Assembly (NCBI GenBank): GCA_026770705.1
Contig: JANJGN010000035.1
Location: 8,556,001 to 8,620,000 of the forward strand
DNA from: Isurus oxyrinchus
Lineage: Eukaryota
Direction: 5' to 3'
DNA length: 64,000 bases
In this document: one piece after another, positions 3,916-31,759 of the stretch
Layout of the letters: every line of letters begins with the position of its first letter
Numbering within the stretch: position 1 is the stretch's first letter
Position numbers and translations under genes: made by a program
Notes under the pieces: generated by a model
Databases searched by the model: none
Seen by the model: the letters and a program-made list of their open reading frames with translations, nothing else
Told to the model about the DNA's origin: nothing

Positions 3916-4009
3916 GTATGTTGAAGAACCTACACAGAAAACAGGAGTTACAAGAGAAACTCCAGGATTTACTTTTGTCACCAGTGGAAAGAAAAGGAAA
4001 TTGCTCACG
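3916..4009 (+). pseudogene. GTPase exon A: (W)YVEEPTQKTGVTRETPGFTFVTSGKKRKLLT
   Basis: Acceptor ccttttag| and donor |gtgagt; 94 bp, phase 2 to phase 0; open frame; lies just downstream of where Walker A is expected in EHD-like GTPases. Confidence 0.88.
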
Positions 4010-4527
4010 GTGAGTGACCCCATGAATTTATGCAGAACATCGGTCCTTTCTGTGGTTTTATTAGTTGCTTGTGGGTAAGTTCAATGAGCAGGAAGCCACA
4101 CTTGGTGTATTATAGTGGCTTCTCTTTAAGCAGGACAACAGAAGTTATGATCTTCTTTGTCGACCTATGAGCGCATTGCACTGTTCCACTGACTCCCAAA
4201 GCCACTGAAAAGAAACTTTTGAAATATTCTGGGAGCGCCACCAAATGTTCAGACGCAGTTACATTGCCCCATCCTGGAACGACACTCACTCCTGAGTGCA
4301 TAGAAACGACACAGTTCTAAGTTGTATATCAAAACAGACAATTGATTCTTGTGGACAATTATCGTCTGATAGGAACAAATACAACATGCACCATTAATGA
4401 AGACTGGATAGTTACTTGCGTACCTCAGTACTTGACCAAAAATCAAAACCTTGCATACAATGTTCATTGTTATAAAACAACTAGGTTGAGCTTTTGTTGC
4501 TACTAATCCGTGTCTATGTTTGCACAG

Positions 4528-4582
4528 GGCAATGCAATGCTCCATCTTTACCCACACTTCCAGGCTCTGGAACAGATGGAAG
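4528..4582 (+). pseudogene. GTPase exon B: GNAMLHLYPHFQALEQME(G)
   Basis: Acceptor tgtttgcacag| and donor |gtacat; 55 bp, phase 0 to phase 1, matching both neighbours. The GNA motif is typical of EHD-like proteins. Not in the ORF track. Confidence 0.85.
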
Positions 4583-5559
4583 GTACATTCCGACGTGTTA
4601 GTAATATTGTAAAGAGCAGAAAGGGGGATTGGTGTCTCTCATCGTACTGATTACCTGAACGGGATATTATTCAACAATTATATTAATTGTTTTTCAATGG
4701 TCTGACCATGTGCAGATTTATTGAAGGTTCTGAATTATGCAAATTTAACAGGTTAAATAAATGTGAATAGAGATGTTGAGCGCCTGCCCTATTAGATGAA
4801 AAAAAAACATAGAATGATGCAACGTAAAGAAAACTTTGTCTGGTATGACGCATACTTGAAATATTCTGCTGATTGGCTGATTTTTGAGCAGCGCTTACGT
4901 TGTAAGTTTTTGTATTTCTCTCTTGGTGTTAGAAAAAAGCAGCATAAGTCACAAATGATTTGAAGTGCGGGAAGATAAGAACGAGGAAGGAACAGAAGGA
5001 CGTCAAATGAAACAGAGAATCATATAGCATTGAAGTAGCATATTTGGCCCATAGCGCCTGAGACAGCCAAATAAGTGCCAGCCGACGTAATTCCACTGTG
5101 CACTTATTAGACAGTTTCCCTGCAATTAGATGATCCTCAAGTGGGCATAGAGTAAACAAGTGTTACGAGGTCTTTAGCCTTTGCCTTTCAAAAAGTGAAG
5201 TCCAAACACTCAACGCCTTCTCTGTGAAAGTAAAATCGTCAGAACCAAGTTAATCATAAATCAATTTACAATAAATCTGATCTCACTGCTTACTGGTATT
5301 CCTGCTAAAATAAGCTCTTATATAGTCCTCCCTGTCGACACAATTTAAATTTATTATTTTGTAAATTGCTTCAATTAAACATGCCCTCAGCTTTTTGCTC
5401 CAGATGGAATACAAGAATATCCAATCCATCCTCCTCGCCAACAAAGCACCACTCGTGTCATCATTCTCGTAAACCTCCTCTTGGCTTTCCCTACTGAGAT
5501 CACATCCATCCTGTTATGCAATGACATGAAGTAAAATTGATGCCTAAACGAATAAAATC

Positions 5560-6540
5560 AATGCAACACAGAAAACGTGGGAAATATTGGCCAGCTCAGG
5601 CAGAAAAAGAAAGCGTTTGATGTTGACAAGGACAGATCATCAGATCTGATGAAAGAGAGTAACTGATTATATTTTGAGAATGTTGAAAGTCTGGGTGTTG
5701 GAGAGTGGATGAAAATAAACGGATTTCTGAGATAGAGCTGAGTGAAGAAGGGGTGAAGTTTCAAAGATGATTCTTGGTAACATGGAAAACAAGTGAACCA
5801 AGTATGCATCTAGTTGATAGGCGAATTGTTGTATAACAATGCACTGAACCTGAAATGAATGAATAAACAAATGATTATCACCACAGAATCAAAGAAACAG
5901 AGATATTAAGCAGAGTGGCGAAGAAGAAGGCATTCAAAATAATTGAACTTTGTGATGAGTTAATTTGCCTGTAAAGGCCACAATTCAAATATGAGATATT
6001 GCTCTCCGGGATTGCATTGGCAATCATTGGAAAATTATACGTGAGAGAAACTATGTCAATTGCAATCTCAAGTGAGATGAAGTTATTGCCATGCATTGAC
6101 TCTGAAGGGAAGTGATCTGAAAAATTATCCCCCGATCTCGGTTTTGTCTTCCAAACTCCATGGGATCAACTTGTGCTGCGAATATTTGTCAATGAATTGA
6201 GAAAAAATATTGAAGTGAAACAGTATTTTTGCTGGAAGCAAAACTGTGGCCTTGGATGTTGGGAAGACAGGAGACAAAAGAGCGGATGTTGTATCATTTC
6301 CGTTTACAAGCGAACGTGACCTGGTTAGGGAATGGCTGATGGCCTTGGCTGAGCTGCGGACGACTGTGTCACAGAGGGACTACTTTCTTCGAAATTCTGA
6401 CATTGGACGGTGGGCAACTATTTGTTGGAATGATGGTCAATATGAAGGAAAATATGGAGGATGATCCATTGAATGGTAAGGCCAGTGCTCAGGACAAAAT
6501 GATGAATGACGGAGAACAATGTTGAGGGATAGAGATTGTA
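5560..6540 (-). mobile_element. Penelope-like element fragment (terminal repeat plus degenerate coding region)
   Basis: Reverse complement of 5570-5660 matches the Penelope-type terminus seen at 56420-56550; purine-rich degenerate body. Confidence 0.5.
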
Positions 6541-6749
6541 AAAGTTTTAATGACAGAACATGCTGCGCTGGGGGTGGGGATTGGGGGGGTGTGGGGGGCG
6601 CTGCTGGCTGCCTTTGGTGACGTTCGCCAGGTATTTAATTGTGTAGTTTTTAAGGGGGTATCAATAAATTCGCCTGATGAGGAAACTAGAAGCCTTACCA
6701 GAAACAGTAGCACAAGAACGCTAAATGGAGTGCTACCCAAACCTACTCA

Positions 6750-7700
6750 ATGATCAAACTCCTCAACGTGTCTGTACTTCTTCTCACATTGAACAATGTT
6801 GCATTTAAAAGCACTCGAATTCTGTAAATCAAATACATTTTCATGAACGACCACAATTGATCCCAGCTATTCGAATTTTTGGTTGTCTTATTTCGAACAC
6901 TGCACACCTACTCAGGACCTTTCCTTCTTACTTTCGTATTTCCTTTATTGCACGTTGATAGGCATTTGCTGCTGGTCCGTGTTCTCTCCAAGCACTCAAA
7001 TTTTCATTATCTTTGTTCCGAATTGTCAACCCTTTCTCAACTTCAGTTATTCAATCAGTAGCCTTTCACGTCCCTTCCTGCATATTTCTATCCACAATTC
7101 TCGAGATGGTTATTCAATTAACACTCACAGTAAGCTGAGGGATCCCACAGATAGCTCCATTATGTTTCGACAAATTCCGATTCCACTGCAGAGGTAACTC
7201 CATTTTCCCATAATTCTTCATGTCATTTTCAACTCTTCTGAAAATGCAGGATTCCATATTTGCTTTTTGAATTGGGCTCCCACTTTTCCCAACCCGATGG
7301 TCCAGTCGAAATATGTTGCAATGCCCTCTGCAACGGCCTTTTGAAAGAAACAGTTCTGCTCTCATCCGTTTTTTCTTCCCTCCCAAAATCATTATAAAGC
7401 TGTTCCTGCACTCATTTTCCACTCCAGACACTTCCGCATTTAAAGGATCACCTCCTCTGTTTCCATGCAATCACAAAGCACACCTTCTGCTGCCCTCCAC
7501 TTTCAACTTTCCAAAGATTTACTTTCGTTCTACCTTGGTCCACTCCTCTACCAAATAAAAAACCACTCTCACAATCCGATTATATCTTTTCGTGCATGTA
7601 TAGGCGATGCAGCTGTTAAAATTTTTTCCTCTCTCATGAACAACAATGCAAGGGCACAAACACAACTTGCATGTGAAATATTTGTTAATCTATGATTATT
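6750..7700 (+). mobile_element. Penelope-like element RT fragment, degenerate
   Basis: cttctcacattgaacaat (LLTLNN), cccagctat (PSY), and FRQIPIP/cattccattctcccagtt-like segments typical of Penelope RT. Confidence 0.6.
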
Positions 7701-7769
7701 TTTACATTGTGCTTAAAGTATTCAATTTGGCCGTAACTAAATGCTGAGTAGTTAGCCATCTCAGCCTCC

Positions 7770-9190
7770 CTCAGAGGGCCTCAGTGTCACAGAGGCAAAT
7801 TTTAGCTAACTTGATTCACCCCACTTCTCATCGCGCAAATGTTTAAGACACTGAATGCTGCAAAAGCGATGGGCCCTGTTATCATTCCGGCAATAGTACC
7901 GAAATTCTGTGATCCAGGTCTTGTCGCAGTCCTACCCAAGCTATTCCAGCAAAAGGAAGGCGCAGGCTTCGAGCCAACGGGGTGTAAAATTGTCCAAGTG
8001 CGGCCTGTTCAGAAACATAAATGGCAAATCCAACCCTGGCAATTAAAGTCACATCAGTGTATTCTGGATGATCGGTAACCTGAAGCAAGGTGTCAACCAA
8101 AGTCTTATATAGCTGCATTTGCTGAGCAAAAATCTGCTCACTGATGACAAGTTTAGTATCGACCATGCCCACTCAACACTTGAACTCATTACAGCATTTT
8201 TTAAACATGGGGAAAAGAGCTGAACTCCAGACGTGATTTGAGAAAGTTGGGCATTTACATCAAGGACGCATTTGGCCGACTGTGGCGGCAAGGAGTCATG
8301 GCCAAACTGGAGCCATTGGTAATCAATGGGCAAACTCTCCGCTGGGTGTAGTCTTACCGATCACAAATGAGGATGTTTGTGGCTGTTGGAGGGCAGGCCT
8401 CATATTTCCAGGAAATCATTGTAGGAGTTCCTGACAGTGGTGGTCCAAGCCAAAACAAATTCAGCTGCTTCATCAATGATTCCAAATAATGTCAGAAGAG
8501 GGGATGATAGCACAATTCTTGCACCATGTAGGACTCCATCGATATAGGTGCAGCCCATGTGAAAATCCAAATGACATTGTGAGAATCCAGGCTTGGGCTG
8601 GCAATTGCCAAGTAACTTTTGTGCCACAAAACGACAATTCAAGGACGTATGATCCTTGACTTTGAATAGCATTACGATCGCTGAATCCCCAAGTAGCAAA
8701 ATCCCAGAGGGTACTATTGGCCATAAACGAACCTTCAATAGTAACATGAATGCTGTGTGTAGAACAGTAGGTCAGAAGATAGGAATCCTGCGGCGTATAA
8801 CCGACCTGGCGACTCCCCAAAACCTGTCCACAATCTACAAGGCACAACTCTAAACCTTGATGGAATACTCAGCACTTGCCTGGATAACTGCAGATGCAAC
8901 AGCACTCAACAATCTTGACACCATCCAGAAGGAAGCAGCCTGATGAATGCAACCGCACCCATAAACATTGGCCCCTCCCCCCCACACACCCCCCAATAAC
9001 CGCCCCCCCCAGCCGCCCCCCCTCGCCCCCCGCCCACCCCCCCCCCCCCCCCCACCTCACCACCACTGGTATACTGTATCAGCACTATCTAGCATCCAGA
9101 AGAAGCTCTAAAGAAAATCAGCAAGGATCCTTAGGCAGTACATTCCAAAGCCAAGTGTACTAACAACAAGAATGACATGGGGAGCAAATG
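7770..9190 (+). mobile_element. CR1-group LINE family B, 3' half of ORF2
   Basis: KTLNAAKAMGP..IPAIV, SCFIND and TPQNLSTIYKAQ motifs; degenerate. Confidence 0.85.
8971..9060. repeat. Poly-C / C-rich low-complexity tract
   Basis: Several runs of 7 or more C, the longest about 17, inside the LINE copy. Confidence 0.9.
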
Positions 9191-9199
9191 TGGGCTAAG

Positions 9200-11940
9200 C
9201 TGGCTTGGCCAACATTTCATGGCCATCTCTCGTTGAGGAGGTGTTCGGAATAGGCATCCTTGAACCGCAGTGGTCCATTTGGTGCACGTACACACACAGT
9301 GCTGAGAGGTAGGAATTTGTAGAATTTTGACCCAGAGACAATGGAGGAGCGGCAACATATTTCTAGGTCAGGGTAATGAGTGACTTGGAGAGTAACTTCC
9401 AGGTGGTGCATTTCTCACCTTTCTGCTTCACTTGACCTTCCAGATGGTATTGATGGTGCGTTTGGGAAGTGCTGTCTAAGGAGCCTAGGTGAATTCCTGC
9501 AGTGCTCCTTGTACATGGTGTATGCTGCTGCTATTAGGCATCGTTGGTTGAGTTTGTTGACGTTTGTGGAGGTGGTATCATTCTGTGGTATCAACTTCAT
9601 TCAGTGTTGTAGGAGCTGCACTCATCCAAGATAATGGGGAGTCTTCCATCCAACTGTTGACTTGTGCCCTGTAGGTGTTGGGCAGAATTTGCAAAGTCAG
9701 GACGTGGATTATTTACCACACAATTCCTTGCCCCTGACCCGCTGTTGTAGGCATAGTGTGGATATGGCTAGACCAGTTCATCTTCAGGACAATGGATATT
9801 TATATTGTAGATTCAGTGATGATTGTGCCATTGAACGTCAAGGGATGGTGGCTGGAGCCTCTTGTTGGAGATAGCCATTGTCTGGTGCTTGAGTGATGCG
9901 AATGTTACCTGACACTTGTCAGCCCAAGCCGGGATATTGCTGCATTTCGGCATGGACTGCTACAGTGGCCAATAACTCAGGAATCGCGCGAGACATTGTG
10001 CAAACTTCAGCAAACGTGCCCACTTCAAAGAACTGGACGTAAAAAAGGTAATTGATGAAGCAGCTGGAAAATACTGGGCCTAGAAAATGTCACTGATGAG
10101 CTACTGCAGTGATGCCCTGGAGCTGAGGTGCCTGACCTCCAACAACAACAACCATTTTCATTTGTGCTGCGAATGAATCCAACCAATGGACAATTATGTC
10201 CCTCATCCCCATTGACTGAAGTTTTGAAAGGGCTCTTTGGTGCCACACTTTGTCAAAGGTGGCCTTGCCGTCAAGGACTGTTATTCGCAAATCATGTCGC
10301 TAGTTCAGCTCTGTGTTACATGTTTCAATTAAATCTTTAACGATGTCAGGAACTGAGTGAATTTGGCGGAACCCAAACTCAGCCTCATTGAGCAGGTTCA
10401 CATTGGGTGCATGTTGATTATGTCTTCCGTTACGTTACTAGTGATCATGAGTAGCTGCTGTAATTGCCAGTTAAGATTTGTCCAGCTATCTGTGTACAGG
10501 TCATGCCTGGGTAATTTTCCACATAGCCAGAGAGATACCAGTTTTGTAGCTACATCGGAAATCTTTATCTAGGGATGCAGCTACTTCTGGAGCACGTGTG
10601 TTAAGTACTAATGCAAGAATACTGTCAGGGCTCACACCCTTTTCATCATCCGGTGCCTTTTGCGATTTCAAGACATCACGTGGGTACATAGAACTATCTC
10701 AGTGCTGATATAGGTGAATGCGTAGTTGGATCGTGCACTCTGGCTAAATATTGCGGCAAATGCTCCATCTTATTTTTGCACTAATGTGCTTGGCTCCCCC
10801 ATGATTGAGGACGGCAATAAATGTGTTCCCTCCTCCTCCAGTAGGATGTTAACTTGGGCACAAGCACTGCTGACTGGATGTGGCAGGACAGCAGAACTTA
10901 GATCTGATCTGCTGGTCATGTGATCTCCTATCTCTGTTCTTCTCTTGCTGCTAATGCTGTTTGACATGCAGGAAGTCCTGTGTAATACCTTCGCGAGGCT
11001 GACAACTCTATTTATATTTAGATATGGCTCCTGCTGCTCCTTGCATTCCTTCCCAATGTCTTCATTGAACCAGGCCTGATACCGTAGACTGAATGAAATG
11101 ATAGAGTGGAGGATATTCCGGGCAATGAGATTACTTGTTGTGTTCGAGCACAAATCTGCAACTTCTGTTGGCTGCAGCACTTCCTGCGTGCCGTGTCTGG
11201 AGGTGCTACGTCATTTCAAATTAAATCCCATTTTTCACTGCAGTAGCGGTACACAACACGATGGGCGGTATCTTCAAAATGGAGGCGGGACTATGCCTCT
11301 ACAGTGACAGTTCGGTCCTCATTCCTAACGATACTATCATGGAGGATGCATCTGTGGCAGTCAGGATGGTGAGGATGAGATCAGGTATGCTTTTGCCTCT
11401 TGTTGGCTTCCTCATCTCCTGCTACTGACCAAATCCAGCAACTATGTTACTTAGAATTAGGAGAACTCCACCGGTTGTGGGGCTCCCGAGCCACTCTTGG
11501 TGATGGACATTGATGTCCCCGAACCGGAACACACTGTACGCTCTTACCCCCATCAGTTCTTCTTCCAAGCGGTGTTCAACATGGAGGAGCACTGATTCAT
11601 CAGATGTTGCAGTGTGGTACGTGAAAATCAGCAGGAGGTTTCCTTGCCCATGTTTACCATCATGTCATGTTATTTCAGGGGGTCCACAGCCAATGATGAG
11701 GGCTCCTAGAGCAACTTCCCTCCGACTGCATACCAATCAACCGCCACCGTTGCTGCACCTGTCCTGCTGGGGGACAGGACCTAACCAGGGATGGTGAACA
11801 CTGTGACAAACTAAATTAGATATGATTCTGTGAGGATTATGCAATGTTGCTTCTTCACTAACCTGTATGAAAACGCTCCTAATTTTGGCACTAGCACCCA
11901 GATTTTAGTAATGAGGAGTTTGCAGGGCCAACAGGACTGA
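9200..11940 (-). mobile_element. CR1-group LINE family B, near-complete degenerate ORF2
   Basis: Minus-strand RITVLDGKATFDKVWHQRALSKLQSMG and QAWFNE..KECKEQ motifs; 3' tail near 9200. Confidence 0.85.
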
Positions 11941-12039
11941 TTATGTTGTCATTACCATTGCCTAGGTTTATGTCTGTTGGCCCATCCAATATCACCGATT
12001 TGTTCAGACCACGTAGAGGATTGATACAACAGAGTGTTT

Positions 12040-12330
12040 TTGATAGGCAACTTCAGAATGTATTCATGATTGAACCACATTCCTCTTGGTTTGGCCGTTA
12101 TGTGGCCCAGATCGGAAAAGGGCAACGGATTTGCTTCCATCATGACATTTGCGAATGAGAAAGCATTTTAAACAAGTCAACGGTTTCATATTCAGCATCA
12201 GAGTTTAAGTTCCATGTTTTTTATTGAATTAAAATTCTACCATCTGCCCTGGTGGCATTCGGACTCTGGCATCCAAAGCATTAGCGTGGATCTTTAGCTT
12301 AATTTTTCAACAACAAAATACCACGCAAAT
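12040..12330 (-). mobile_element. tRNA-type SINE, shark family
   Basis: Reverse complement resembles the SINE at 20540-20880. Confidence 0.55.
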
Positions 12331-13302
12331 GCCAACCATTCACTTATTGGATTTTTTCATTCAAGCCACTCACCTTCCTGACTTGCAAATGTATGGCTGT
12401 TCCTTCACTGTTGCTGCTTTTAAATCCTGGAGTTCTCTCCTTAACAGCCATGTTAGCGCACCTAAATTTTAACAGCATGCATTGCTGGACTCTAATAATC
12501 GAATATATAGGTTAGTTCATGTGTCAAAGCAGTCCTTACTTAATAATCAGAGATAACCAGAAATGTAGCCATTGCACAGAATTTAGAAGGTGGAATGGAA
12601 AGCAAAAGATGAATAAAGAGGGGAAGAAGAACCTAAATGGAAAAGAAGCAAAATGATAAATATTAAATCTTTAATAAGCAAGAGAAATAAGGAATATTTA
12701 GTGTAATTAAGCATGTATTCGGAATTAAAATTAGAGTACAAATTAAATAACTAATATAGAAAGGAACAATAAATTTATTGAGGAAAACAGATGAACATAA
12801 CTCAGGTGCGAAATAAACGGGACAGGTTGGGGGTGTCCGTGGTTATTGTGGAAGAGAAAATATACGAGGTATGCATAGAGACTAAATCGAAAAGAAGTGC
12901 ACCTCGGTGGGAAGTACACGCTAAGCATATGCAATAACTATTGAATATTCTGTGCGAAGGGGCCTAACATGATAGAGTCCGCAGCGTCAAATAAAATTGC
13001 AACAGACAAAATACAAACAAAATGGAAAATGGGAATGGCATAAACAGTTCAATAACAATTTCCTATCAAGGCACGCTACGCTTGGTCAGTCAACAATTTT
13101 TTGATGCAACAATTAGCTTCCAATATGCAATGAAAATGCAGGGGGTGAGCAGTTAAACAGTAACTTAGAGATGAAAATCCAAGGAAACAAAGATACCTGA
13201 TTCATTCGTCTTTGAGTGAATATCGAAGATTATTAAATTTCCAAATTAATGGATCCCAGAAAACTTTGAGTATCGTAAGTCAGGAGCACATGGCAGATTG
13301 AG

Positions 13303-13346
13303 CGGGGGGGGCGGGGGGGGGGGGGGGGGGGGGGGCGGGGGGGGGG
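13303..13346 (+). repeat. Poly-G tract (G-quadruplex-capable)
   Basis: About 43 nt, almost all G, interrupted by single C residues. Confidence 0.9.
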
Positions 13347-14020
13347 AGTTCATATGAGCGGCTAAAATAAAGATGACACATTTCGAATCCTTGCATTCCA
13401 TGTCCCATAAGAGAGCAGATCAGAAGCAAGGGTGTGATGGATGAAATAGCAATATTGCAGGACAGCCGAAGGCAGTGTTTCATCGTTGTACTAAGATACA
13501 CCATTATATCATCTAAAAGTCATGAAGAGAAAACGAAGATGTTCGCGGTCATACTGGAGTTCAATGGGTTTTCGGGGTGAAGAGTATGTTAATTTTTGGT
13601 GGCATTGGAAGGGTGTTGGGGTCCAATTATGTCGGGGGAAGTTCCGTGGAGTGTCAGACATTTCAGTGCAATGGAGGCGCAGAATCTAGACGTGTCTTTG
13701 GTTTATTTTCTCTTTTTTATGCATAGCAATTGATGCAACATACTTGAAACAAGCCTAAGGGAAAAAGTTGCAAAAGGGTAAAGTTTGCACATTAGTTTTG
13801 GGTTTATTTATGTTTCATAAATCCCAACTATTTTATGACATGTCCTAAATATGCAAAAAAAATGTGATGTGAAATGATGGACAATAAAAGGAAGGACATC
13901 TGGAAAGGAAAACCTTTGAATTTCAAAACACCAAGAATTGAACTCGAAAGTTGCGTTCTGAGACACCCGTTACAAATGTTAGTTTGGCTTCTGATGGCAC
14001 TCCTTTTGGTGCTCGTACAG

Positions 14021-14164
14021 GGGTGACAGACTACCTGGCCACTGAGGTCTGCACATCTAAACACAAGAACTTTAATAACTTTGTGACATTTATTGATACA
14101 CCAGGTCTTGTGGATGGAGACATGAGCTACGAATTTGATGTTGATAGAGCACTCTTCTGGCTTG
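14021..14164 (+). pseudogene. GTPase exon C: (G)VTDYLATEVCTSKHKNFNNFVTFIDTPGLVDGDMSYEFDVDRALFWL(G), containing the G3 DTPG motif
   Basis: Acceptor ctcgtacag|, phase 1. DTPG motif and a Y.FD...W segment as in EHD/sarcalumenin. The expected phase-1 donor reads ttaacg instead of gtaacg. Confidence 0.9.
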
Positions 14165-14359
14165 TTAACGTATCAACCCACACAGTGGATAAATATAAAT
14201 CAAGGCATGACTTAAACAACAACACTGAATTCTTCAGGAGCCTTATGAAGGTTCTGTCAAAATAAATGGAAAAGTTGTTTACATTTGCAGGCCAATTGAG
14301 ATATTGAACGATAATTCTGAGTGTGTGAGGGAACATGAACATGCAGGGAGGAATTAATT

Positions 14360-20300: not shown

Positions 20301-20539
20301 TATTCCACCGACGTTTTGTGTTGCTCCATCATTCACGGTGGCAGGATTTTTATGCCCACACAACCCCCCCCCACACACCCCCCCACCCCGTGCAAAATCA
20401 CCCGCTTCCTTCAGTTAGAAATTTAATTGACCATCACAATTCATAACTGGATGTGACACGACTCAATATTTTTGAGCTGATACGATCCTTCTGGTATTAC
20501 ATATTGCAGTTATTCTTTCTTGGATAACTGAGCAACTGG

Positions 20540-20880: not shown

Positions 20881-21779
20881 TTTTTTGTTTAGCCACATTT
20901 ACATTGCCATTTAACCAAGAACATTCCTTGTCGTTATGTTAATTATTGAGCGAAGAATATACACCCTGATAAGATTACACATTGTGGGATTAAACTTATC
21001 TTCCAGTCATGAACCACTGGGCTTCAAAAATACCAAGGATACAATTGCTAGATCTGTTGTAAATCGAACCAATTAAGGTCATTGTTAAATTCATGGATGC
21101 TGGTAGTTTAATCATGTACACGTCGAGGAGCTTTTTGCCCTCTTGCTCTTCCCTTCATACCTGCTAGAAGCAGAATCCAACAAATGTGCCCTTCATGAGT
21201 TGTCCAGCACAATCAGTAGTCCTGGATTCGCAATATCATTTGTATTAGATATTGATCTCCCCTGTCCTAAACACAGTAAGTGCCTCTGATGTCAGCAGCG
21301 CTTTTGTCTGTCATATATATGGCCTGGTGCCGTTAGACTTCATGGGATCAGGATGCAACTTTGAGGATACCAAGCGACATTCCTTCAGAAAAAATGAACT
21401 TCTGCGGCATCACCTTTGTCCGTTATGCCCTGAACGATAGACAAGCATGATAATGAATGTAACATGGCTCTCAAAGGGATTCAACGAGCATGACTAAATG
21501 AATCCAGTCATTAATTTCCCGATGACAGCTTTGTCCAGCATTGACCTGAAAATTATTCCTGCTTTAGTTCCTCTTGTCGATCGTTGCCACATAGATGATC
21601 GGCCTTGATTTTTTATTCATTTTCCCCCGACATTTCCGCGCAATTCAAGGGTAAGTAAGAGACAACTGCGTTGTACACATGTCCAAAGTCACATTTAATG
21701 AAATGGAGGCAGATTTCCTACCTGATCGAAATCAAGGATTTTATTAAACATTTATGAGAATTTTGCACTTGCAAACACA

Positions 21780-22630
21780 GAAATATAGAAACTAGGAGGA
21801 AGAGCAGGCCATTTACAACTTTCAGCCTGCTCCGCCAATCATTATGATCATGAATGATCATCGAACTCAATAGCCTGCTCCCGCTTTCTTCCCGTAACCT
21901 TTGATCCCTTTCACCCTAGAGCTTTATCTAACTCCTTCTTGAAAACAAACAATGTTTCAGTGCCAAGTACTTTCTGTGGCAATGAATTCCACAGTCTCAC
22001 CACTCTGTGAGTGAAGTAATGTCTCCTCATCTCAGTCCAAACGGTCTACTGCGTATCGTCAGACTGTGATCCCTGGTTCTGCACTCACCCACCATCTGTA
22101 AAATTCTTACTGCATCTACCCTGCCTAGTACTGTTAGAATTTTATAGGTTTCTGTTAGATCCCCCTTAATTCTTTTGAACTCCAGCGAATAAATTTTACT
22201 CTACTCAATCTCTCCTCACCATCCCAGGAATTAGCCACGTAAACACTAGCTGCACTTCCTATATAGCAAACAAACCCCTGCTAATCTAAAGACATGAAAA
22301 CTGCACACACTAATCCTGGCGGTCTCAAAAAGGCTCGGTAGAATTAATATAAGGCACCCCGGCACCTGTCCTTGAAACATCTGGCTATGAATGCCCACAT
22401 ACAATTTCCATTATTTACAGCCTACTTCATCCCCAGGCTTACCATCAGCAACTTTTGTACAAGGACAACGAAGTATCGTTGCACTTTTCCCTGTCTCAAC
22501 TGTAGCCATTCAGATAATAATCTGACTCTTTCTTTGCTACCAAAGTGGAAAACCTCACATTTATCCATATTATACTGCATATGCCTTGCATTTGTGCACT
22601 CACTCAGCTTGTCCAAATCACACTGACATG
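21780..22630 (-). mobile_element. CR1 LINE (family A) 3' fragment
   Basis: Minus-strand DKLSECTNARHMQYNMDKCEVFHFG motif; CR1 3' UTR near 21785. Confidence 0.88.
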
Positions 22631-23159
22631 CTCACAAATATCTATGATGGACCTTTAACTCTTAGAGTGTAACCCCATGCGGTATGGGCTTCTGGCCTCG
22701 CGTCGGTCACACGCACATACTGTTGCATTACCTCCGCCCCGACCACGGACACCACCATTCTGAAAGGAATGTCGACATCCAATGCCGGGCTCCGACCCCC
22801 CATTAACCTTTGCAGTCCTCCGAATTACCGGATCCACGATCCGGACACAAACAACCAGACCTGCAAACCTCCCACCTCTGACTCTGATCACGATCCTGAA
22901 CTTCGTGAAATGACTAACTGGACATCCCTAAGCTCTGAAAACCACCGCACAACAACCACATAGATCCCGTGCTCCCACCTCTGTACCACCCTGCCCGCCC
23001 CCATGAACTGGCATGAGTCAGTTTTGATTCTTAATGGGGCCGCGTACAGCTGGCAGTATCAGCTGAGCACTAAAGGAATTTTGAAGGAAAGGAAGTGTGG
23101 ACCAGATGGCATATAGCATTCCAAAAAAAACTTCCTTCATGTTTCGCTGACTGAAACAG

Positions 23160-25740
23160 CATTCATTGTGCATCCCTAGCTGTCAAGCAGAAGGTGGTGG
23201 TGAGATGACTTCTAGAACCGCTGCAACCCATGAGCTTTAGGTGCACGTATAGTTTTGTGAGGAAAATATTTCCAGTATTTTGTCCCAGTGACAGTGAAAT
23301 GATGGCTATATAATTCCCACTCAAGATGCTGAGCGACATGGAGGGGAACATCCAGCTCGAGCTGTTCCCAACTACGTTATTTCCTTGCTCTTCTAGATGG
23401 TAGTGGTCGTGAGTTTGAAACGTGTTGTCGAATGAGCCATGTTGATTTTCTGCAGTGTATCTTAGAGATGGTACACACTGCTGCTGCTGTGCGTCGGTGT
23501 TCGAGGGAGTATTTTTTTAATATTTGTGCCAATCATTCTAGATGGTGGGCAGTCTATTTTGAGAGATGAGGTTGTTTACTGTTGCATGATTCCTAACATC
23601 TGACCTTCTCTTGCAGTGAAAATATTTATCGGGCTATTCATGTTCAGTTTCCCGTCAATGCTAACCTCCAGGAAGTTGATAGTGCGGGATTCCTTCAAGG
23701 TAATACAAATGAGTATCAATGCATTGTGGTTATATTCAGTTTTTTGGAGATGGTCATTGCCTGGAACTTCTGTCACGCGAACGTTGCACGAATATTGTCT
23801 ATCCAAGCCTGGATATTGTTCAAGAATTGCTGCATGTCGTCATGGACTGTTTCCTAGGTAAGAAAATGAGAATCACGTTGAGTATAGTGCAATTATCAAT
23901 GACATCTTCATTTCTGACGCTACGATGGAAAGAACGTAATTGATGAAGCAGCTGCAGATATTTGGGCCCAGGACACTACCCTGAGGAAACTCTGCAGTGA
24001 TGTCTTGCTGCTGAGATGACTGACTTCCAACCTGCACAAACGCTTTCCATTATGCTAGGTATGACTCCAACAAGCCGAGATTTCACCCTTCTGATTTCCG
24101 TTGGCTCTAGATTTGCCCGGGCCCCAATGACGCCACACTCGGTCAAATGTTGCATTTGTATTAACGGCATTAACTCTCAGCTCGCATCGGCAGTTCAGTG
24201 ATTTGTCTCTGTTTGAACAAAGGCTGTAATTAGGTCAGGACCTGAGTCGCCCTGACAGAATCCAGATGAGACATCAGTAAGCAGGTTTTGGCTAAGCAAA
24301 TGCCGCTTGAGAGCAGTGCTGATGACCCTCCCATTACTTTGCTGATGATCTAGAGATGCTGGTAATTGCCTGGGTTCGATTTGTCCAGACTTTTCTGTAC
24401 ACAATTGTGCACATTGCCCGGTGGATGCCAGTGTTGTAGCTGTACAGGGTAGCTTGGCTGGGGGCGTGGCAAGTTCTGGAGTACATCTCGTCAATATTAT
24501 TATTGGAATGTGTTCAGGGCCCATTGCCCTCAGCTGTTTCTTGATATGACTTGGGGTAAACTTAATCCACTGAAGACTGGCATATGTGATTTGGGGCACA
24601 TCTGGAGGACAAAGAAATGCTTCATCGACTCAGCACTCCTGCCTATAAATTGTAGCAAATAATTCAGCCTAATCCCTTGCACTGATGTGCTGGACCCCTC
24701 CATCATTGAGGATGCTGCTAATTGTGGATCCTATACTCCATTGCGTTGTTTGCTTCTCATTCACCAATCAAGTTTGGACGTGCCAGAACAACAGAGCTTT
24801 CATCTGATTTGTTGTTTGTGGCATCGCTTAGCTCTCCCTATCACTTTCTGCTCTTGCTGTTTCGCACGCATGTGGAGCTGTGATTTAGCTCCAGCAGTTT
24901 GATGCCACATTTTTAGGTACGCATGGTGCTATTCCTGTCATTGCCTCCTGCATTATTTCCTGAACGAGCTCTGATTTCCCCGCTTGAAGATAATGGTGCA
25001 ACGTGGGATACATCGTGCCATGAGGTTACAGATTGTGTTCAGGTACAATTTTGTTGCTGCGGAATGCTGAAAGCACCTCACGTATAACGGGTGACTTGAC
25101 TGGCCTGTTCGAAATCTATCCCATTTGGCACGGTGGTAAGGCCACAAAACATGATGGAGTGTTATCCCCAATGTGCATGCTTGAAATTGTCCTCACAACG
25201 CGCTGGGGTCATTTCTAACGATACTGTCATGGACAGATGCGTCTGCAACAGGCAGATTGCTGAGAATGACGGCAAGTTTGCATTTCCCTCATCACCTTTC
25301 GCACACCGAATCTTACTTTTAGGACTCGTCAAGCTCTGTCAGCATTGGTGAACAGAGCCACCCAGAATACATCTGTGCCCATGTCACCCTCGCTGCTTAC
25401 TGCAGGTGGCGTTCAGCATGTAGATGTACTGATTTATTAACTGATGGAGGGTGGTACATAGTAATCAGCAGGATGTTACAATTGCCCATGCTTGACTTTG
25501 TGCCATGAAACTTGATGGGGTCGAGCGTCGAGGTTTTGCACACCCAGGGAATCTCCCTAGTGCATGTGTGCGACTGTGCCACCATCTCTGCTGGGCCTCT
25601 CCTTATGGTGGGACAGGACATGCTCAGGGATGGTGATGGTGTCTCCTGGGACGTAATATGTAATCTCTGATTCCATGAGGGCCCCTATGTCAGGTTGTTG
25701 ACTGATTATGGTTTGAGAGTGCACGCAGAATTTTGGCACC
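23160..25740 (-). mobile_element. CR1-group LINE family B, near-complete degenerate ORF2
   Basis: Endonuclease start (ISQQPDI..LMES..T...P..TITIP..VLSH..RPSRDGGTV), LWPYHRAKWDRFRT, and FTPSHIKKQLRAMGPEHIP motifs. Confidence 0.88.
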
Positions 25741-25899
25741 TGGCTGAGACTCTGCCATCAGCTGCAGTTGAGAAAGCCGCCCAGTCAAGTTTGTCATTAA
25801 AAAAGCAAGTTTCACACCGGAAGTGATTCACACCTTAAAGGCGCATTATTGCCCTCTGCACATTTGTTAATTTTCTCAATAAGCATTTAAAAGGACACT

Positions 25900-26460
25900 T
25901 AAATGACGTGGACGAGTTCATGATTTTTTTTTTACCAATCAGGCCATGGTATTAACTAAAGTAAGCGTGATGACACCTGGAGCGCCACCCGACGTCATCT
26001 CGCCCTTCAATCATAAGGACAGAAAAGGGGACGATCGCTAATGATTGTGAAATTCTGAGCTCCATTCACGACTTCTCTGATACTGAAACAGCCAATTTCG
26101 AATTCCTGCAAGGACTGAACTATTTCCAGCCCAGATTGAAAAGTTGCAAGTAACTTTAGAGTCACACAAATGTCAGGCAATGTCCATCTCCAAAAAGGAA
26201 GAATCTATCCATCAGTCCTTGATATTCAATGGCAGTTCTAATGCTGAATCTACGAACTATCAGCATCCTGGGTGTTACCATTGACCACAAACTGTTCTGC
26301 ACGTTCCATTGAAATATAATGGTCACAAGTGAACGTTAGAAGCTAAGGATGCTGCGACGAGTAAATCACCTCAACATCTTCTACATGGCAAATGTCAGGA
26401 TTGTGATGGAATGTGCTCTGCTTCTTTAGATGAGTACAGCTCCAAAAACGAGTCAATGAA
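25900..26460 (+). mobile_element. CR1-group LINE family B fragment
   Basis: ILGVTIDHKL and aatgtcaggattgtgatggaa motifs. Confidence 0.7.
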
Positions 26461-26851
26461 ACGAAAAAAAACATTACCCAGAATCAGGACCTGTGTGTGA
26501 GTTCATTGGAGGAGCGGCATTTATTTTATTTTTACCTCGTATGTTTGTTAGCTGCTCACGATACAATTTGACGTATTTCAGAGGGAAAATAATCTAAATT
26601 GTTATGGCGTCCACAATGTACTCAATTACTGACCTGTGTCTAAAATTAGACACATATCCACAGAAGGTATTGGAGACAATGGAATGATATAATCATATGC
26701 ACATACATCTTCAGTAATGTCCTTGTGCACATTGCTGAAATGTACTGTCGCCCTGCGATCAATTTTTAAAGTTGAAATTATATAATGGAGTTTCTGGAAC
26801 ATGTATTGTGCCCTCTAGCAATGAAAACAATATGCATGTGCATCATTTCAG

Positions 26852-27022
26852 TGAAAAGGCGTTGCAGAACAGGAAAGCATGGATCAAGTGTATGTTTCTC
26901 CGCTCCATGACATACCTGGCACCCTTGTCCCTGCTGGCAAGTTTTATCATTTCGAACACACAATGGAACATCTCACTGATATTATGGGAAAGGACGTGGC
27001 AAATATTTCACTCATCTGGGCG
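26852..27022 (+). pseudogene. GTPase exon F (hydrophobic segment): EKALQNRKAWIKCMFLRSMTYLAPLSLLASFIISNT-[frameshift]-MEHLTDIMGKDVANISLIWA
   Basis: Acceptor catcatttcag| in phase 2 (matches exon E) and donor |gtatgg. NR.A motif followed by a hydrophobic stretch. The protein-like reading switches frame at AACACACAATG (~26955-26965). Confidence 0.72.
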
Positions 27023-27199
27023 GTATGGATCTATTGTTTGACAGAGAAATGTGATGCAGGATTCAGCTGAGTAGATTATCCGTGCAATAAGTAGGCTGGT
27101 TTTTTAATGTGTGCCTCAGAAAATTGGAAATATACACTCTGGAGTATAGAGCAATAGAAGGTTAATGTCTCTGCTTTGCAAGGTTATGAATGGTCATGA

Positions 27200-27900
27200 A
27201 ATAATTAATGTTAAATTTTGAGTTCAATGCTTCCCTGCTGGCGTTTTTCGTTGGGTGGGCTGGTGGATATCGGTGACTGAAATAGGATAAATTGACCCCC
27301 CGTTGGGTTCCTTCAGGCCCGAACTCCCAACAGTTTTCCACAAAGGAGTGGGTCATAGCATCGGGCAGGCCCACCGCTCTTCCACAGTTGAAGTCCTTAA
27401 GTGAAGAGTTAGTAGCTAATTAGAAGCTGCTTCCAGCTCAGGCTCAAATATTAGGCTGGTGGGAGCATTTCTCCAATGTGAATGAAGCCCGTAAATCATC
27501 GGGTTTAGGCCTCGGGCTGAAAGTGTGCGCCATTTTCTGAAGCCCCCTTCTAGCATTGCATGCAACCCCACTATCTTGTCTTCCAGCTCTATTACCGTAT
27601 CCACCTGCCAAACATGTATCTTTTACCGGCATCTCCCCCGACAACCCGACTGCCCGCTAAGCACTCCTGAAGTCTTCAATACCCTCTCTGCCCTGAGGTC
27701 CTGAATGCTAAACCTTACAGCCATTCCTGGGACTTAAGCCGTGAGCTCCTCATGAATGTATTTTAGTGCCCATTGCAGTTTCTGTCACTGCAGGGACTGA
27801 AGAGCTCTCATTCAATCCGATTGTTTGGCAGCACACTAAAGCGTTTCTTACGCTCAGGTGAGGGGCATAAGCCCTCTTGCAGGCAATTCATGATTGAACA
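27200..27900. mobile_element. GC-rich interspersed repeat, putative non-autonomous DNA transposon (Harbinger/MITE-like)
   Basis: Shares phrase-level similarity with 49790-50400 and 58720-59110; no coding capacity. Confidence 0.35.
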
Positions 27901-28599
27901 TGAAAAAAAGAAAAAAACATGATACTTCTCTGCCTTCCATACAAATAATTTGCATGTGCTTTCTGTTCTTTTCCAAAGCCGAAGATTCTTCTGCTTCGTG
28001 ATTTAAAGGTCTTTGGCTTATTAGTTTCATTACATATTTTTCTGATCTCACCGCTTTAGCCATTGGAACAGAAGCACCAGAGATGTCCTCTTTTATTGAC
28101 TTTCCATTCCATCAACAATCACAGTAAATAGGCCTTCTTACACCATTACCAGAAACTGTGGTGCGTTGCTGTCCTAATCATATCTGCAGTTCTGCAACAA
28201 AAGCAGCATTCTGAAAGAAAGTTACCTACATGAAAACATGTTGAACTGCCCATTGACTCCGAAAATCCCTCCTCTTCTCTGTGCACCTTACATCACAAGT
28301 AACCAGATGCAACTTATATTATTTTGCATCCTAGATTTCCGTCATTCAATATCCTATATAGACATTCCAGGTGAAACAACAATTAATTTGAACTTTATAT
28401 ATAACACACCGTTACTAGTCACTCTCGAATACTTTTTGCCTGCACGTGGTCTGTCCAACAACTGGAGAACAAACGTAGATTGATTCCAGGTTTTCTGATC
28501 ACGTCCATTCATTTTGCAAAAGTGACACTGAGCTTCCAGTTTTTTTGTGATTTCATGTTCTAACTGGTCGCCCGTTGAATATGCCATTGCTGTCAAACA

Positions 28600-29050
28600 C
28601 TGTCCTTCTGCTTCCAAATATATGTTCAGCAACTGCATCCGCTCATGCAGTTAGACACTTTACATGGTTCCCAACAAGGCATCGAGATTAATATTTTCAC
28701 ATCATAAACTCAGCCTCAGTACTTCGGATTAGGACCTGTATTAATCATTGCGGCTTTCCCACTAACACCACCTCTGAACCGATCTTTTGCTAGGCTAACG
28801 GTGTTTCATTATCACCTCATTTCAACCTGCACCATCCTCATGTTTGCCAATTTATCTTTCCTGCCACAACCTCCCACAGATCAATGCTTTTGGATTCCCC
28901 TGCCACCACATCCTCTGTTCGGTACAAGCATAAAGTTTGTCAAATAAATAAAACTTTCCAGTTCTGAGACATGAATATTTAAACCAATATTCTCTCACCG
29001 CAAATGACACTGATGTCCGGACTGCTTTCAGCATTTAATATTTTCACATG
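28600..29050 (+). mobile_element. Penelope-like element 3' remnant, highly degenerate
   Basis: ttagacactttaca (LGTL-like) followed by a terminus ending ...ctgctttcagcattt. Confidence 0.4.
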
Positions 29051-29499
29051 TATTGCAGTAAAACTGGAACTGTTTCGGGACACAATGTTAAGGACCTTTG
29101 TTCTGTCTGTCCTCCTTATAGTGATTACTTGTTAGTGTGTGCAGCACTGCAGGGGCAGATTTAGTCTGTCTTTAAACTGTGATGTAATTATACGTGGCAC
29201 GTTTAGTAGCTCAATAGTGTTGGAGCACCATTCTGTGGAAGAGCCATGGTGTGACTGAACAGCAAAGGCCTAAGCTGATGGGAGTTGATTTGAGTGTTAA
29301 ATGTAATTTAACAGATGATATTTCAGTTTATGCATGGCATATCTCGTAGATGCACAGGAAAATAAAAAGAATTCAACCTCCAAATTTGGAAAGATACGCT
29401 GTCGCTAAATCTTACTGAATGTGAACTGAGAGAGTTTATTTGGACAGTTTAGAGGAAACTTACCTGTATACATGCTATCTAGTTTTCCTGGAGTGCTTC

Positions 29500-29660
29500 A
29501 GTGGTTGTAGGGGGTTGTGTGGCACAATGTGTAGCATCTCTTCTGTTCAGCCAGATGGGTCCAATTCATGCCTTGCTTCGGGACTCGTTGGCTATGGAAG
29601 CAATAATGTTATTATTGTGGCCGGGCAAGTTGATCATCAGTCTACAAATAATTCTAGTAT
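29500..29660 (+). mobile_element. Short SINE-like fragment
   Basis: ggggttgtgtggcacaatgtgtagc tRNA-like head. Confidence 0.35.
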
Positions 29661-29943
29661 TAATGAAAAGAGGCTTTAAAAAGCGGGAGAATTTCCTTCT
29701 CAGTATGACTGCCGAAGGCTACATAAAACAATTGCAGTATTTTGCAAATATAATCGTTGATTAATCAAGTGGGAGTCCATTATCACTTTGGACATTAAGG
29801 AGGAATAATCTTTGGATAGTGTAAATGCCGATTTTTTTCTGTACCAAATTCATATTGTACCCGATGTGGTAACAGTTGTTTTCTGATTTGTTCAGCTCTT
29901 AATGGTAAGTGTGATGAGATGCTCGAATTATGTCTATACTCAG

Positions 29944-30091
29944 AATATGGTGGTGAGCGAGAACAGCTTCACATATTTCTGGGATAAAATAATTGTTTCC
30001 GATTTTACCTTGGCAGTAGCAGTGCAGTAGCTACACTTTCTTTCAGGGGAGTTCAATTTTATTTGTTTACTTTTTGCTGACATGGTCTCAG
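29944..30091 (+). pseudogene. Weak candidate for the missing second hydrophobic exon (NMVVSENSFTYFWDKIIVSDFTLAVAVQ*LHFLSGEFNFICLLFADMVS)
   Basis: Acceptor tatactcag| and donor |gtaatt, hydrophobic and in the expected interval. However, it contains a stop, and its end phase and length do not fit cleanly. Confidence 0.2.
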
Positions 30092-30929
30092 GTAATTCGA
30101 TACATTAGGAAGAAACTACAATGTCTCGTACTTTACTTAACCTGGAAGAGATCAGCCTTTACCAGCAATTTAACACAATAGCATGTGGACATAATGGTGA
30201 ATTGCATAAAAAAGAAAGTGTGTGCAAATACCTCCTCAGGTATTCCGGGTCTGTCAAACATGTAAACATGTTCATTTCTCTAATTACAAGTGGTGCATAT
30301 CAAACATCTGGAACTGGCTAACTGGAGACATAAATCTCCTGGCTCTGAAAATATTGATTTGCCTCATGTTCATCTCGATGATGCTTGCAAAGTGTTGCTA
30401 AAGTTATATGTTATCCAGTTTATTCAGCTACTGACAACAATTACACGACTTGTTGTGTTCAGGAAGCATGCATTGTCACTCAGAAAGACTTTATTCAAGA
30501 CACAAGAGGCTTTCAGAAGATGTGGAAGTAGAAAAGGACCTAACAAGTAGTGATACTGTTAAAACAAAAGAACAGCAATAATACACTGAGTCCAGATGGA
30601 AGAAAGGGAAGATCAGAGACTGGGTTCATATTAGAGTTTACCACCATGAGAAAATGGGAAAAAGGTACAAAATACATAGGACGAGAGATATAAAGACTAG
30701 GAGACAGATTTAGGAAATGGAACATAGGGTTCGACAGAGATATAGAGACAGAAAGAGAGAGATAGGACTACATAGAGACACGGTGGAGAGAGAGAGAGAG
30801 AGCCCGCGAGAGGTTCACTGGCTGTAATAGAATATTATCACTTCCATGTCTGTAAAAAGAGTATAGTTACACCGGAATCTTACTTATCAAACTGAGCAGA
30901 GATAGCTTTTTCATGCATTGGATGTGTAA

Positions 30930-31250
30930 GAATTTTTACCTATTCCTATTTGCCCTTGCTTTGAGGGCATTTAAGAGTCAAACATATTGCTGTGTCTGGA
31001 GTCACATGTAGGCCAGACCTGGCAAGGATGGCAGATTTCCTTTTCAAAACACCATTAGTGAGGCGAATGTTTGTCTTTTCTACAGAAATCAACAATGGTT
31101 TTATGCTCTCCGTTAGAATTTTATTTCCAGGTGATTATTGAATTAGAATTCCAGCAGCTGCTTCGGCAGAGACTTGAACCCAGGTCCCCATAGCATTACC
31201 CTGGGCCCCTGGATTACTGGTTTATTAACAATATAACTAGGCTACTGCCT
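30930..31250 (-). mobile_element. tRNA-type SINE, shark family
   Basis: gagggcatttaagagtcaa...ggagtcacatgtaggccagacc...ttgaacccaggtcccca...ggattactgg; reverse complement of the 20540 family. Confidence 0.75.
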
Positions 31251-31442
31251 CTTCCCTTATCCCTTAATGAAGGGTTTATCCTCAAATTGCAAATATTCGT
31301 TAGAGCATTGACTTTGGATAATGTCTGCAGATTCAGATTGACAGGTCTGAAATAATAAATGGCTATGAATGAGGATAACGAGGAACTGTTGATCTTCGCA
31401 CACTACCCAGGTCTATTCTTAATTTCTGTCTCTATATTTCAG

Positions 31443-31528
31443 CATTCAATGCACCGTAGGGAGGAGAGAGAAAAAAACAAGTGCGAGCAAACCGTTATTC
31501 TGTCCAACGTGTTGTGGTTGAGAAAAAG
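31443..31528 (+). pseudogene. GTPase exon G: IQCTVGRREKK-[+1 A]-QVRANRYSVQRVVVEKK
   Basis: Strong acceptor ttctgtctctatatttcag|, phase 2; donor |gtcact; 86 bp, one more than a frame-preserving 85, with an A7 run at 31471-31477. Basic cytoplasmic-tail pattern ending VQ.VV..KK. Confidence 0.72.
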
Positions 31529-31702
31529 GTCACTGTCTGTTATTGCCCTGTTACTTCCCTGATTCGAAGTATCCTTCTTGTCTTCTCATATCCACTGCTG
31601 CATTTATTGCAAAACAATCATATGCAGATATGTAAATCTCCAAAATGTATTTCACGATATATTGCATTTACATAATTCATTTTATAAACCTTTTTTTTGC
31701 AG

Positions 31703-31759
31703 GTGCAGCTCAATGAGATGTATCTCTCTCAGTGTCTCTCAGAACAGGAATTGTGCTAA
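31703..31759 (+). pseudogene. GTPase terminal exon: VQLNEMYLSQCLSEQELC*
   Basis: Acceptor ccttttttttgcag|, phase 0; L.E.YL.Q..S..EL* terminal pattern; TAA at 31757-31759. Confidence 0.78.

What the first reader, a model, noticed from the sequence alone, without database searches (positions are those of the whole stretch)
3916..31759. Hidden 28-kb gene for an uncharacterised membrane-anchored dynamin/EHD-like GTPase, apparently decaying
Seen in sequence: eight exons with splice signals and consistent phases, G3 DTPG and G4 NKAD motifs, a helical region, a hydrophobic segment and a basic tail. Established: DTPG/NKAD in this context marks EHD/sarcalumenin-like dynamin-superfamily proteins. Inference from memory: it belongs to a poorly studied fish/invertebrate family (zebrafish si:dkey-98f17.5-like) of unknown function. 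A GTPase with a C-terminal membrane anchor suggests membrane remodelling or, by analogy with Mx/GBP/atlastin, an immune role. Several residues I recall as conserved are changed (VRFDPMRQ vs VFFDPMGQ, GVTRETPG vs GVAIETQG), consistent with a diverged duplicate under relaxed selection.
Basis: partly seen in the sequence, partly recalled or inferred. Interest (0 to 1): 0.7.

Follow-up and report, generated by a model that had tools for sequence, protein, structure and literature searches.

The report
Dead dynamin-like gene copy in shark
This is a broken copy of a shark gene for a dynamin-like protein predicted to sit in membranes; an intact copy lies 1 Mb away, and the many dead copies were likely carried along when neighbouring immune-receptor (NLR) genes duplicated.

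Summary
The exons are real, but the gene is dead, not merely decaying. The window holds nine exon remnants (3916-31759) of a 12-exon gene. Exons 1-2, with the Walker A motif, lie just upstream, and exon 7 is deleted. Three donor sites are lost, and there are two in-frame stops and two frameshifts. An intact, spliced paralogue (449 aa) lies 1 Mb downstream. Nine other broken loci lie among NLR immune-receptor genes on the same contig. Shared stop codons show that copies were duplicated again after death, and one edge of the window's block breaks into an NLR gene copy, so the copies are likely passengers. The intact protein is a third gnathostome paralogue, sister to si:dkey-98f17.5. Its model folds like EHD4 (Z 25) but has no EH domain and carries a predicted two-segment membrane hairpin. 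The family G4 is S/TKAD; the NKAD here is a pseudogene substitution. The family spans many eukaryote groups, has bacterial relatives, was not seen in mammals or birds, and appears unstudied. The window feature is ordinary; the family is moderately interesting.

The parts
1..55948 (+). In-window part of a ~60-kb duplicated block (G000:C35:8551689-8611948) matching the intact locus at C35:9553126-9614657, introns included
   Evidence: blastn pieces 78-82% identical and colinear; edges aligned
3916..4009 (+). Exon 3 (switch I region); AG/GT intact; A88T, T89R, Q92P relative to the intact copy
   Evidence: A88 in 93 of 96 homologues
4528..4582 (+). Exon 4 (YPHF loop that aligns with the EHD KPF loop); AG/GT intact
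14021..14164 (+). Exon 5 with G3 DTPG; 3-nt insertion; donor reads TT at 14165-14166 (GT in the intact copy); read-through stops at 14263-14265
15125..15285 (+). Exon 6 with G4 (NKAD here, SKAD in the intact copy); F182R and G187R
   Evidence: G187 in 92 of 96
17604..18143 (.). Site of the ~5.3-kb deletion that removed exon 7; occupied by a ~0.5-kb piece of a dispersed repeat
   Evidence: paralogues E, F and J keep exon 7
18745..18890 (+). Exon 8 (long helix) with in-frame TGA at 18844-18846, shared with paralogue F
26852..27022 (+). Exon 9 (first hydrophobic segment); 1-nt deletion near 26961
30291..30403 (+). Exon 10 (second hydrophobic segment); in-frame TAA at 30399-30401; donor reads TT
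31443..31528 (+). Exon 11 (basic stretch); 1-nt insertion
31703..31759 (+). Exon 12 with the stop codon

Best explanation
The stretch is an intron-containing pseudogene with eight disabling lesions, copied from an intact 12-exon gene 1 Mb downstream, and likely multiplied as a passenger of duplications in the surrounding NLR immune-receptor cluster. Shown: exon map, lesions, intact paralogue J, nine further broken loci, stops shared between copies, interleaving with NACHT genes, and a block edge next to an NLR LRR-like exon. Inferred: unequal crossing-over or other non-allelic rearrangement among the repeated NLR units made the copies; the ancestor of this copy stayed under some constraint for a time, died, and was then copied again (D and F). 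The intact product is predicted to be a membrane-inserted dynamin-superfamily NTPase: EHD-like G domain and helical bundle facing the cytosol, with a two-segment hydrophobic hairpin where EHDs have their lipid-binding tip. By analogy it would oligomerise and bend or tether an endomembrane on nucleotide binding (untested).
For: Lesions in the window copy D: exon-1, exon-5 and exon-10 donors lost, exon 7 deleted, TGA in e8, TAA in e10, -1 in e9, +1 in e11. J at C35:9554068-9593118 has 11 of 11 GT-AG introns and an open 449-codon frame, and contigs of run X5 join its exons 5-6 at GT..AG with loose ends matching J's exons 4 and 7 (one run, RNA status a guess). 10 of 11 loci examined are broken. 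D and F share the e8 TGA; I, H, A and G share a TAA at codon 413. D-F dN/dS 0.91, neutral simulation median 0.91 (0.63-1.43); J lineage 0.22, p 2e-9. 30 of 96 NACHT matches in G000 lie on C35, 27 of them at 0.63-9.71 Mb and 15 within the span of the copies. D's 5' edge abuts a 12-kb copy (78%) of the region just after the NACHT exon at C35:8656287, with an LRR-like exon 1.3 kb from D's exon 1. Model of homologue P0011: pLDDT 89, best fold EHD4 5mvf, Z 25.1, rmsd 4.2, 322 aligned; two hydrophobic segments in 82 of 96 homologues.
Against: The D lineage ratio is 0.60 (p 0.017 against 1) and F's 0.53, just under the neutral range, so the copy was probably not dead on arrival (rough majority-rule ancestor). 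In the span of the copies most NLRs are broken too: only 4 of 15 NACHT matches there sit in stop-free frames of 480 aa or more, and one of those has a degenerate Walker A, so selection on NLRs as the driver is inferred, not shown. The LRR-like exons were recognised by pattern; the two 28-aa pieces sent to Pfam gave no hit. I fetched only parts of the 3-Mb array, so unit boundaries of most copies were not mapped. Nothing on the intact protein's activity, nucleotide or location was tested.
Confidence: 0.8

Rival explanations
1. The gene itself went through birth and death as an immune-type GTPase array (like GBP, IRG or GIMAP clusters): copies were kept for a while under selection and later lost.
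For: At least 11 loci in two or more age classes (about 65-72% and 76-88% non-coding identity); D, E and F lineage ratios of 0.52-0.60 suggest a period of constraint; location among NLR genes.
Against: Only 1 of 11 loci is intact; shared stops show duplication after death; pairs among copies I, H, A, G and C give 0.82-1.43; the family is slow-evolving, 56-59% identical between shark and mollusc or crustacean over the full length, unlike fast immune GTPases (recalled knowledge).
Confidence: 0.15
2. The window copy still makes a functional truncated protein or a regulatory transcript.
For: Exons are better kept (81-93% identity) than introns (about 82% at aligned sites) against J, and G3 is unchanged.
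Against: The exon excess is explained by constraint on J (lineage ratio 0.22). The first lesion is at the exon-1 donor, ahead of the Walker A exon; H66, A88 and G187, each kept in 92-94 of 96 homologues, are changed. Only 0.94 kb of J's upstream DNA came with the block.
Confidence: 0.04
3. The lesions are assembly or sequencing errors in an intact gene.
For: Two lesions are 1-nt indels, one beside an A-run.
Against: The others are substitutions and a 5.3-kb deletion; one stop is shared with a separate locus; J on the same contig has no such errors; D differs from J at 18% of non-coding sites.
Confidence: 0.01

Closest known systems
EHD1-4 ATPases (EHD2 2qpt/4cid, EHD4 5mvf/5mtv/7sox)
   Same: Best sequence matches in the PDB (E 8e-9 single, 5e-15 profile) and best fold (Z 25.1, rmsd 4.2, 322 aligned, model 20-441 to chain 19-403): G domain plus a composite helical domain from both ends; a YPHF loop aligns with the KPF loop.
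   Different: No EH domain; two predicted membrane segments at the helical tip where EHDs only insert a loop into the outer leaflet (PMC9741607, passages); G1 GNHSAGKS and G4 S/TKAD instead of the EHD forms; about 17% identity.
TbMfnL family and its bacterial homologues (bioRxiv 10.1101/2023.06.28.546890); bacterial two-TM relatives of EHD/sarcalumenin (PMC7016017)
   Same: G domain followed by two C-proximal membrane segments. The family profile pulls ~460-aa bacterial proteins at 26-39% identity from Verrucomicrobiota, Planctomycetota, Kiritimatiellota, Rubrimonas and Myxococcales, the same taxa that the paper lists for bacterial MfnL; median 115 bits against 59 for EHD2.
   Different: TbMfnL has a mitochondrial targeting signal and was reported absent from animals. 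The eukaryotic family studied here is one side of a long branch from the bacterial proteins. No TbMfnL sequence was on hand and none of the paper's accessions appeared, so the link rests on taxa and architecture.
Zebrafish si:dkey-98f17.5 and si:ch211-11k18.4 gene groups (uncharacterised)
   Same: Same family, about 450 aa, 56-61% identical to the shark protein.
   Different: J and D fall in a third group (sharks and rays, sturgeon, bichirs, lungfish, coelacanth; SH-aLRT 98), sister to dkey-98f17.5 (96); no teleost among the rows sampled.
Mitofusin / BDLP / IniA
   Same: Dynamin-superfamily fold with a membrane-inserted hairpin between stalk helices; Z 15-19.
   Different: Clearly lower fold scores than EHD, longer proteins, no PDB sequence match for mitofusins.
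Unprocessed pseudogenes in tandem immune-gene clusters; lineage-specific NLR expansions in sharks (PMC8455134, passages)
   Same: Birth-and-death turnover of clustered NLRs, broken copies mixed with intact ones.
   Different: Here the dead copies are of an unrelated neighbouring gene.

Membership tests
Unprocessed (duplicated) pseudogene | Keeps the parent's introns and flanks, colinear | tested here: met
   60-kb block 78-82% identical to the J locus
Unprocessed (duplicated) pseudogene | Disabling lesions in the coding frame or splice sites | tested here: met
   8 lesions
Unprocessed (duplicated) pseudogene | Neutral coding evolution | tested here: met
   D-F 0.91, neutral median 0.91; whole D lineage 0.60, slightly under the neutral range
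Unprocessed (duplicated) pseudogene | No protein product | not testable with these tools
   No proteomics; contig-level RNA data cannot show absence
Dynamin superfamily (intact family members) | Dynamin_N-type P-loop domain with G1, G3, G4 | tested here: met
   PF00350 above cut-off in 6 of 6 proteins; G1/G3/G4 columns
Dynamin superfamily (intact family members) | Helical bundle built from both sides of the G domain | tested here: met
   Predicted model and alignment to EHD4 over residues 20-441
Dynamin superfamily (intact family members) | Assembly-stimulated NTP hydrolysis and membrane remodelling | not testable with these tools
   Needs biochemistry
EHD proteins | C-terminal EH domain | tested here: not met
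   No EH family hit in 6 of 6 proteins; the 449-aa model ends in a helix that aligns to EHD4 residue 403
EHD proteins | G4 NKAD | tested here: not met
   S 76, T 17, A 2, N 1 of 96; NKAD only in pseudogene copies D and E among the shark loci
EHD proteins | KPF oligomerisation loop | tested here: inconclusive
   YPHF aligns there; P in 84 of 96, F in 53 of 96
EHD proteins | ATP rather than GTP use; stable G-domain dimer | not testable with these tools
   No assay; the complex predictor was not available
MfnL family | G domain followed by two C-proximal membrane segments | tested here: met
   82 of 96 homologues by a Kyte-Doolittle window
MfnL family | Branches within the MfnL clade | tested here: inconclusive
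   No TbMfnL sequence; family separate from the MfnL-like bacterial proteins in an unrooted FastTree
MfnL family | Mitochondrial targeting signal | not tested
   No predictor run; the structured part starts at about residue 13
si:dkey-98f17.5 orthologue group | Branches with dkey-98f17.5 proteins to the exclusion of other paralogues | tested here: not met
   Separate group holding its own coelacanth and bichir genes (quick trees, SH-like support only)
Sarcalumenin | Signal peptide and lumenal acidic region | not tested
   No sarcalumenin sequence compared; some database names say 'sarcalumenin-like'

The most novel reading that the evidence does not exclude
The intact gene belongs to an unnamed, very old eukaryotic branch of the dynamin superfamily that keeps the two-membrane-segment build of the bacterial EHD/MfnL relatives. 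It is present in animals (where that build was reported absent), choanoflagellates, amoebozoans, alveolates, cryptists, hemimastigotes and metamonads, has three paralogues in jawed vertebrates, and was lost in mammals, birds, crocodilians and turtles. It would be an integral-membrane counterpart of EHD acting on an endomembrane, directly testable in zebrafish or Xenopus.
Probability: 0.55. Interest if true: 0.6.

Novelty: new member of a known kind. Interest (0 to 1): 0.3.

Why it matters
The window feature itself is an ordinary dead duplicate and matters little, except as a clear case of a bystander gene copied at least ten times inside an NLR cluster; shared stops and block edges could be used to order the cluster's duplications. 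The more useful by-product is the parent family: a well-conserved, widely spread dynamin-like protein with no functional paper in my searches, apparently absent from mammals, which may be why it was overlooked.

Tried and rejected
Expression of the window copy: no RNA holder listed; none of 4 runs laid covered window 13700-15700, while 1 of the same 4 covered J. These are contigs, so the blank is not evidence. A second co-duplicated coding gene inside the window: the 82-aa frame at 57942-58187 (-) first looked like an LRR exon but has 7099 first-look candidates in the genome and no Pfam or PDB hit, so I treat it as a decayed repeat; the 120-aa frame at 62938-63297 (-) gave nothing. Rfam: 0 matches in the window and 7 nearby loci. 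A 99% identity peak between duplicates was a TG microsatellite. The ch211-11k18.4 paralogue, present in Carcharodon, was not found in G000; this may be a search or assembly limit. Accession match to the MfnL paper: none among the members listed for 8 of 10 bacterial proteins found. Plasmids: no match. The mixture-model tree with bacteria did not finish; FastTree was used. Earlier scan notes: none.
Full report
1. Observation. One exon used as query found 463 proteins, led by shark proteins named 'uncharacterized'. tblastn of nine such proteins against the window (seven shown) gave colinear hits from 3917 to 31756. The window is G000:C35:8556001-8620000. The host is a lamniform shark by inference: the intact paralogue is identical to the Carcharodon protein at 305 of 308 aligned residues.

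2. Gene map. A whole-genome search with a 449-aa catshark homologue gave 60 exon matches, all on C35 between 6.66 and 9.59 Mb (a floor). The locus at C35:9554068-9593118 (J) has 12 exons, 11 of 11 GT-AG introns and an open 449-codon frame. Contigs of run X5 join J exons 5 and 6 at GT..AG, with loose ends equal to J's exons 4 and 7 (1 of 4 runs, RNA status guessed). Aligning J's exons to the window copy (D) gives 11 of 12 exons: e1 and e2 upstream of the window, nine inside, e7 absent.

3. D is dead. Lesions: exon-1 donor lost; exon-5 donor TT; exon 7 removed by a deletion of about 5.3 kb with a 0.5-kb repeat piece at the joint; TGA in exon 8; 1 nt missing in exon 9; TAA and a TT donor in exon 10; 1 nt extra in exon 11. 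Near-invariant residues are changed: H66L in G1 (H in 94 of 96 homologues), A88T (93 of 96), G187R (92 of 96). J versus D: dN 0.104, dS 0.177, non-coding distance 0.21 over 29,656 sites. Lineage ratios against a majority-rule ancestor: J 0.22, D 0.60, F 0.53, E 0.52; D versus F 0.91; a neutral simulation gives 0.91 (0.63-1.43). So D's ancestor was probably constrained for part of its history, then died before the D-F split, since both carry the same exon-8 TGA.

4. The array. Of 11 loci examined, 10 are broken by stops, frameshifts or splice-site loss; two of them (H, A) may each be two fragments of different age. For B, C, G and K I fetched only 10-20 kb, so their missing exons rest on the genome search. 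I, H, A and G share a TAA at codon 413. The same contig holds 30 of the 96 NACHT matches in the genome, 27 between 0.63 and 9.71 Mb, 15 of them among the copies; a 606-aa frame at C35:9709566 has NACHT, NOD2_WH and NLRC4_HD2 above cut-off. D's block runs from C35:8551689 to 8611948 and matches J's locus from 0.94 kb upstream of the ATG. Directly left of it lies a 78%-identical copy of the DNA that follows the NACHT exon at C35:8656287, with an LRR-like exon at 8551329-8551246. The block edge thus falls in what would be the intron between a NACHT exon and an LRR exon. Copy E is followed by DNA matching J's downstream region, including a broken NACHT gene. I infer that the gene rode along in NLR-cluster duplications. 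Against this: 11 of the 15 NACHT matches in that span are short or interrupted, so the driver is not shown. Shark NLR expansions are published (PMC8455134, passages read).

5. The parent family. A 65-row tree (IQ-TREE quick search, SH-aLRT only) shows three gnathostome groups: ch211-11k18.4, dkey-98f17.5 and a third with J and D, sister to dkey-98f17.5. The representative search gave 1814 proteins at E<=0.001, 200 at E<=1e-30, of which 150 were listed. Of 20 looked up, named sources include Pigoraptor, Monosiga, Clastostelium, Hemimastix, Hemiselmis, Vitrella, Paratrimastix and Blattamonas. Blattamonas lacks mitochondria (recalled), which argues against a purely mitochondrial role. With a lizard query, the best 120 of 1180 hits were 16 lepidosaur rows, then amphibians and fishes; no named turtle, crocodilian, bird or mammal was among them, though some rows are unnamed and only 7995 candidates were scored. 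Loss in those groups is likely, not shown.

6. Predicted structure and mechanism. The AlphaFold2 model of P0011 (96-row alignment) has pLDDT 89 and pTM 0.80: two N-terminal helices, G domain 58-255, a long helix 267-343, short helices to 400 and a closing helix 410-442. Best folds are EHD4 (Z 25.1, rmsd 4.2, 322 aligned) and EHD2 (Z 21.9), then mitofusins (Z 19.4). Two hydrophobic segments near 323 and 380 occur in 82 of 96 proteins (9 have one, 5 have three). They sit where the EHD helical tip binds lipid (PMC9741607, passages). I infer a hairpin with both ends in the cytosol, and nucleotide-driven assembly that bends or tethers membrane. ATP or GTP use is open.

7. Bacterial relatives. The profile found 154 relatives among 222 candidate stretches in bacterial genomes, 80 kept. 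75 of 80 gave complete frames of 404-601 aa; 42 show two hydrophobic segments, 29 one and 4 none. Their G1 matches by construction of the search. Profile comparison with one of them: probability 99.8, 262 columns, 28%; the match covers the G domain and start of the long helix, not the hairpin. They form their own side of a long branch (unrooted). Their taxa are those listed for bacterial MfnL in bioRxiv 10.1101/2023.06.28.546890 (section 5 and passages read), which reports no such architecture in opisthokonts and mentions a small sister group as an ancient paralogue. Its supplements (alignment, full tree, accession table) were not seen and bear on this link. PMC7016017 (passages) states that the closest bacterial homologues of EHD and sarcalumenin have a pair of transmembrane helices.

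8. Literature. The two zebrafish gene names occur in 1 paper, as a table row (PMC3530609, passage). Searches found no study of this family; PMC11789081 (passages) does not mention EHD; PMC12699882 (one passage) only cites TbMfnL. Other papers were seen as search listings only. The library lacks most subscription journals.

9. Verdict. Real exons, dead gene. A pseudogene in a tandem array is a known kind of thing; interest 0.3, raised a little by the passenger history and by the unstudied parent family.

Noticed in passing
G000:C35:0.63-9.71 Mb: Large NLR (NACHT) cluster: 27 matches, 12 in stop-free frames of 480 aa or more; many further near-identical NACHT frames of about 588 aa on small contigs such as C55, C62, C65, C79, C87, C133.
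   Followed up: partly
G000:C35:8656287-8654839 (-), L051:4839-6287: 483-aa open NACHT frame 35 kb past the window end whose Walker A is degenerate compared with the 606-aa NACHT frame at 9709566.
   Followed up: partly
window:19116-19263: Intron-8 stretch matching the alternative C-terminus of the annotated Carcharodon protein P0001, which thus lacks the membrane hairpin; may be a gene-model artefact or an intronic last exon.
   Followed up: no
G000:C35:9509065-9529456: About 20 kb of low-complexity tandem repeat 25 kb upstream of the intact gene.
   Followed up: no
window:17604-18101 and 56373-56518: Pieces of a dispersed repeat that also occurs as 1.2-3-kb copies at 80-91% identity nearby, with long frames resembling a retroelement (by eye, recalled); one piece sits at the exon-7 deletion joint.
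   Followed up: partly
window:56561-64000: Belongs to a different duplicated block, matching C35:8503113-8510375 (78-79%) and 8725817-8729647 (66-67%).
   Followed up: partly
G000 whole genome: No ch211-11k18.4 orthologue was found although Carcharodon has one; may be a search or assembly gap.
   Followed up: partly
P0220 (Callorhinchus LOC103188467): A long-branch chimaera member that groups with the dkey-98f17.5 proteins in the FastTree.
   Followed up: no
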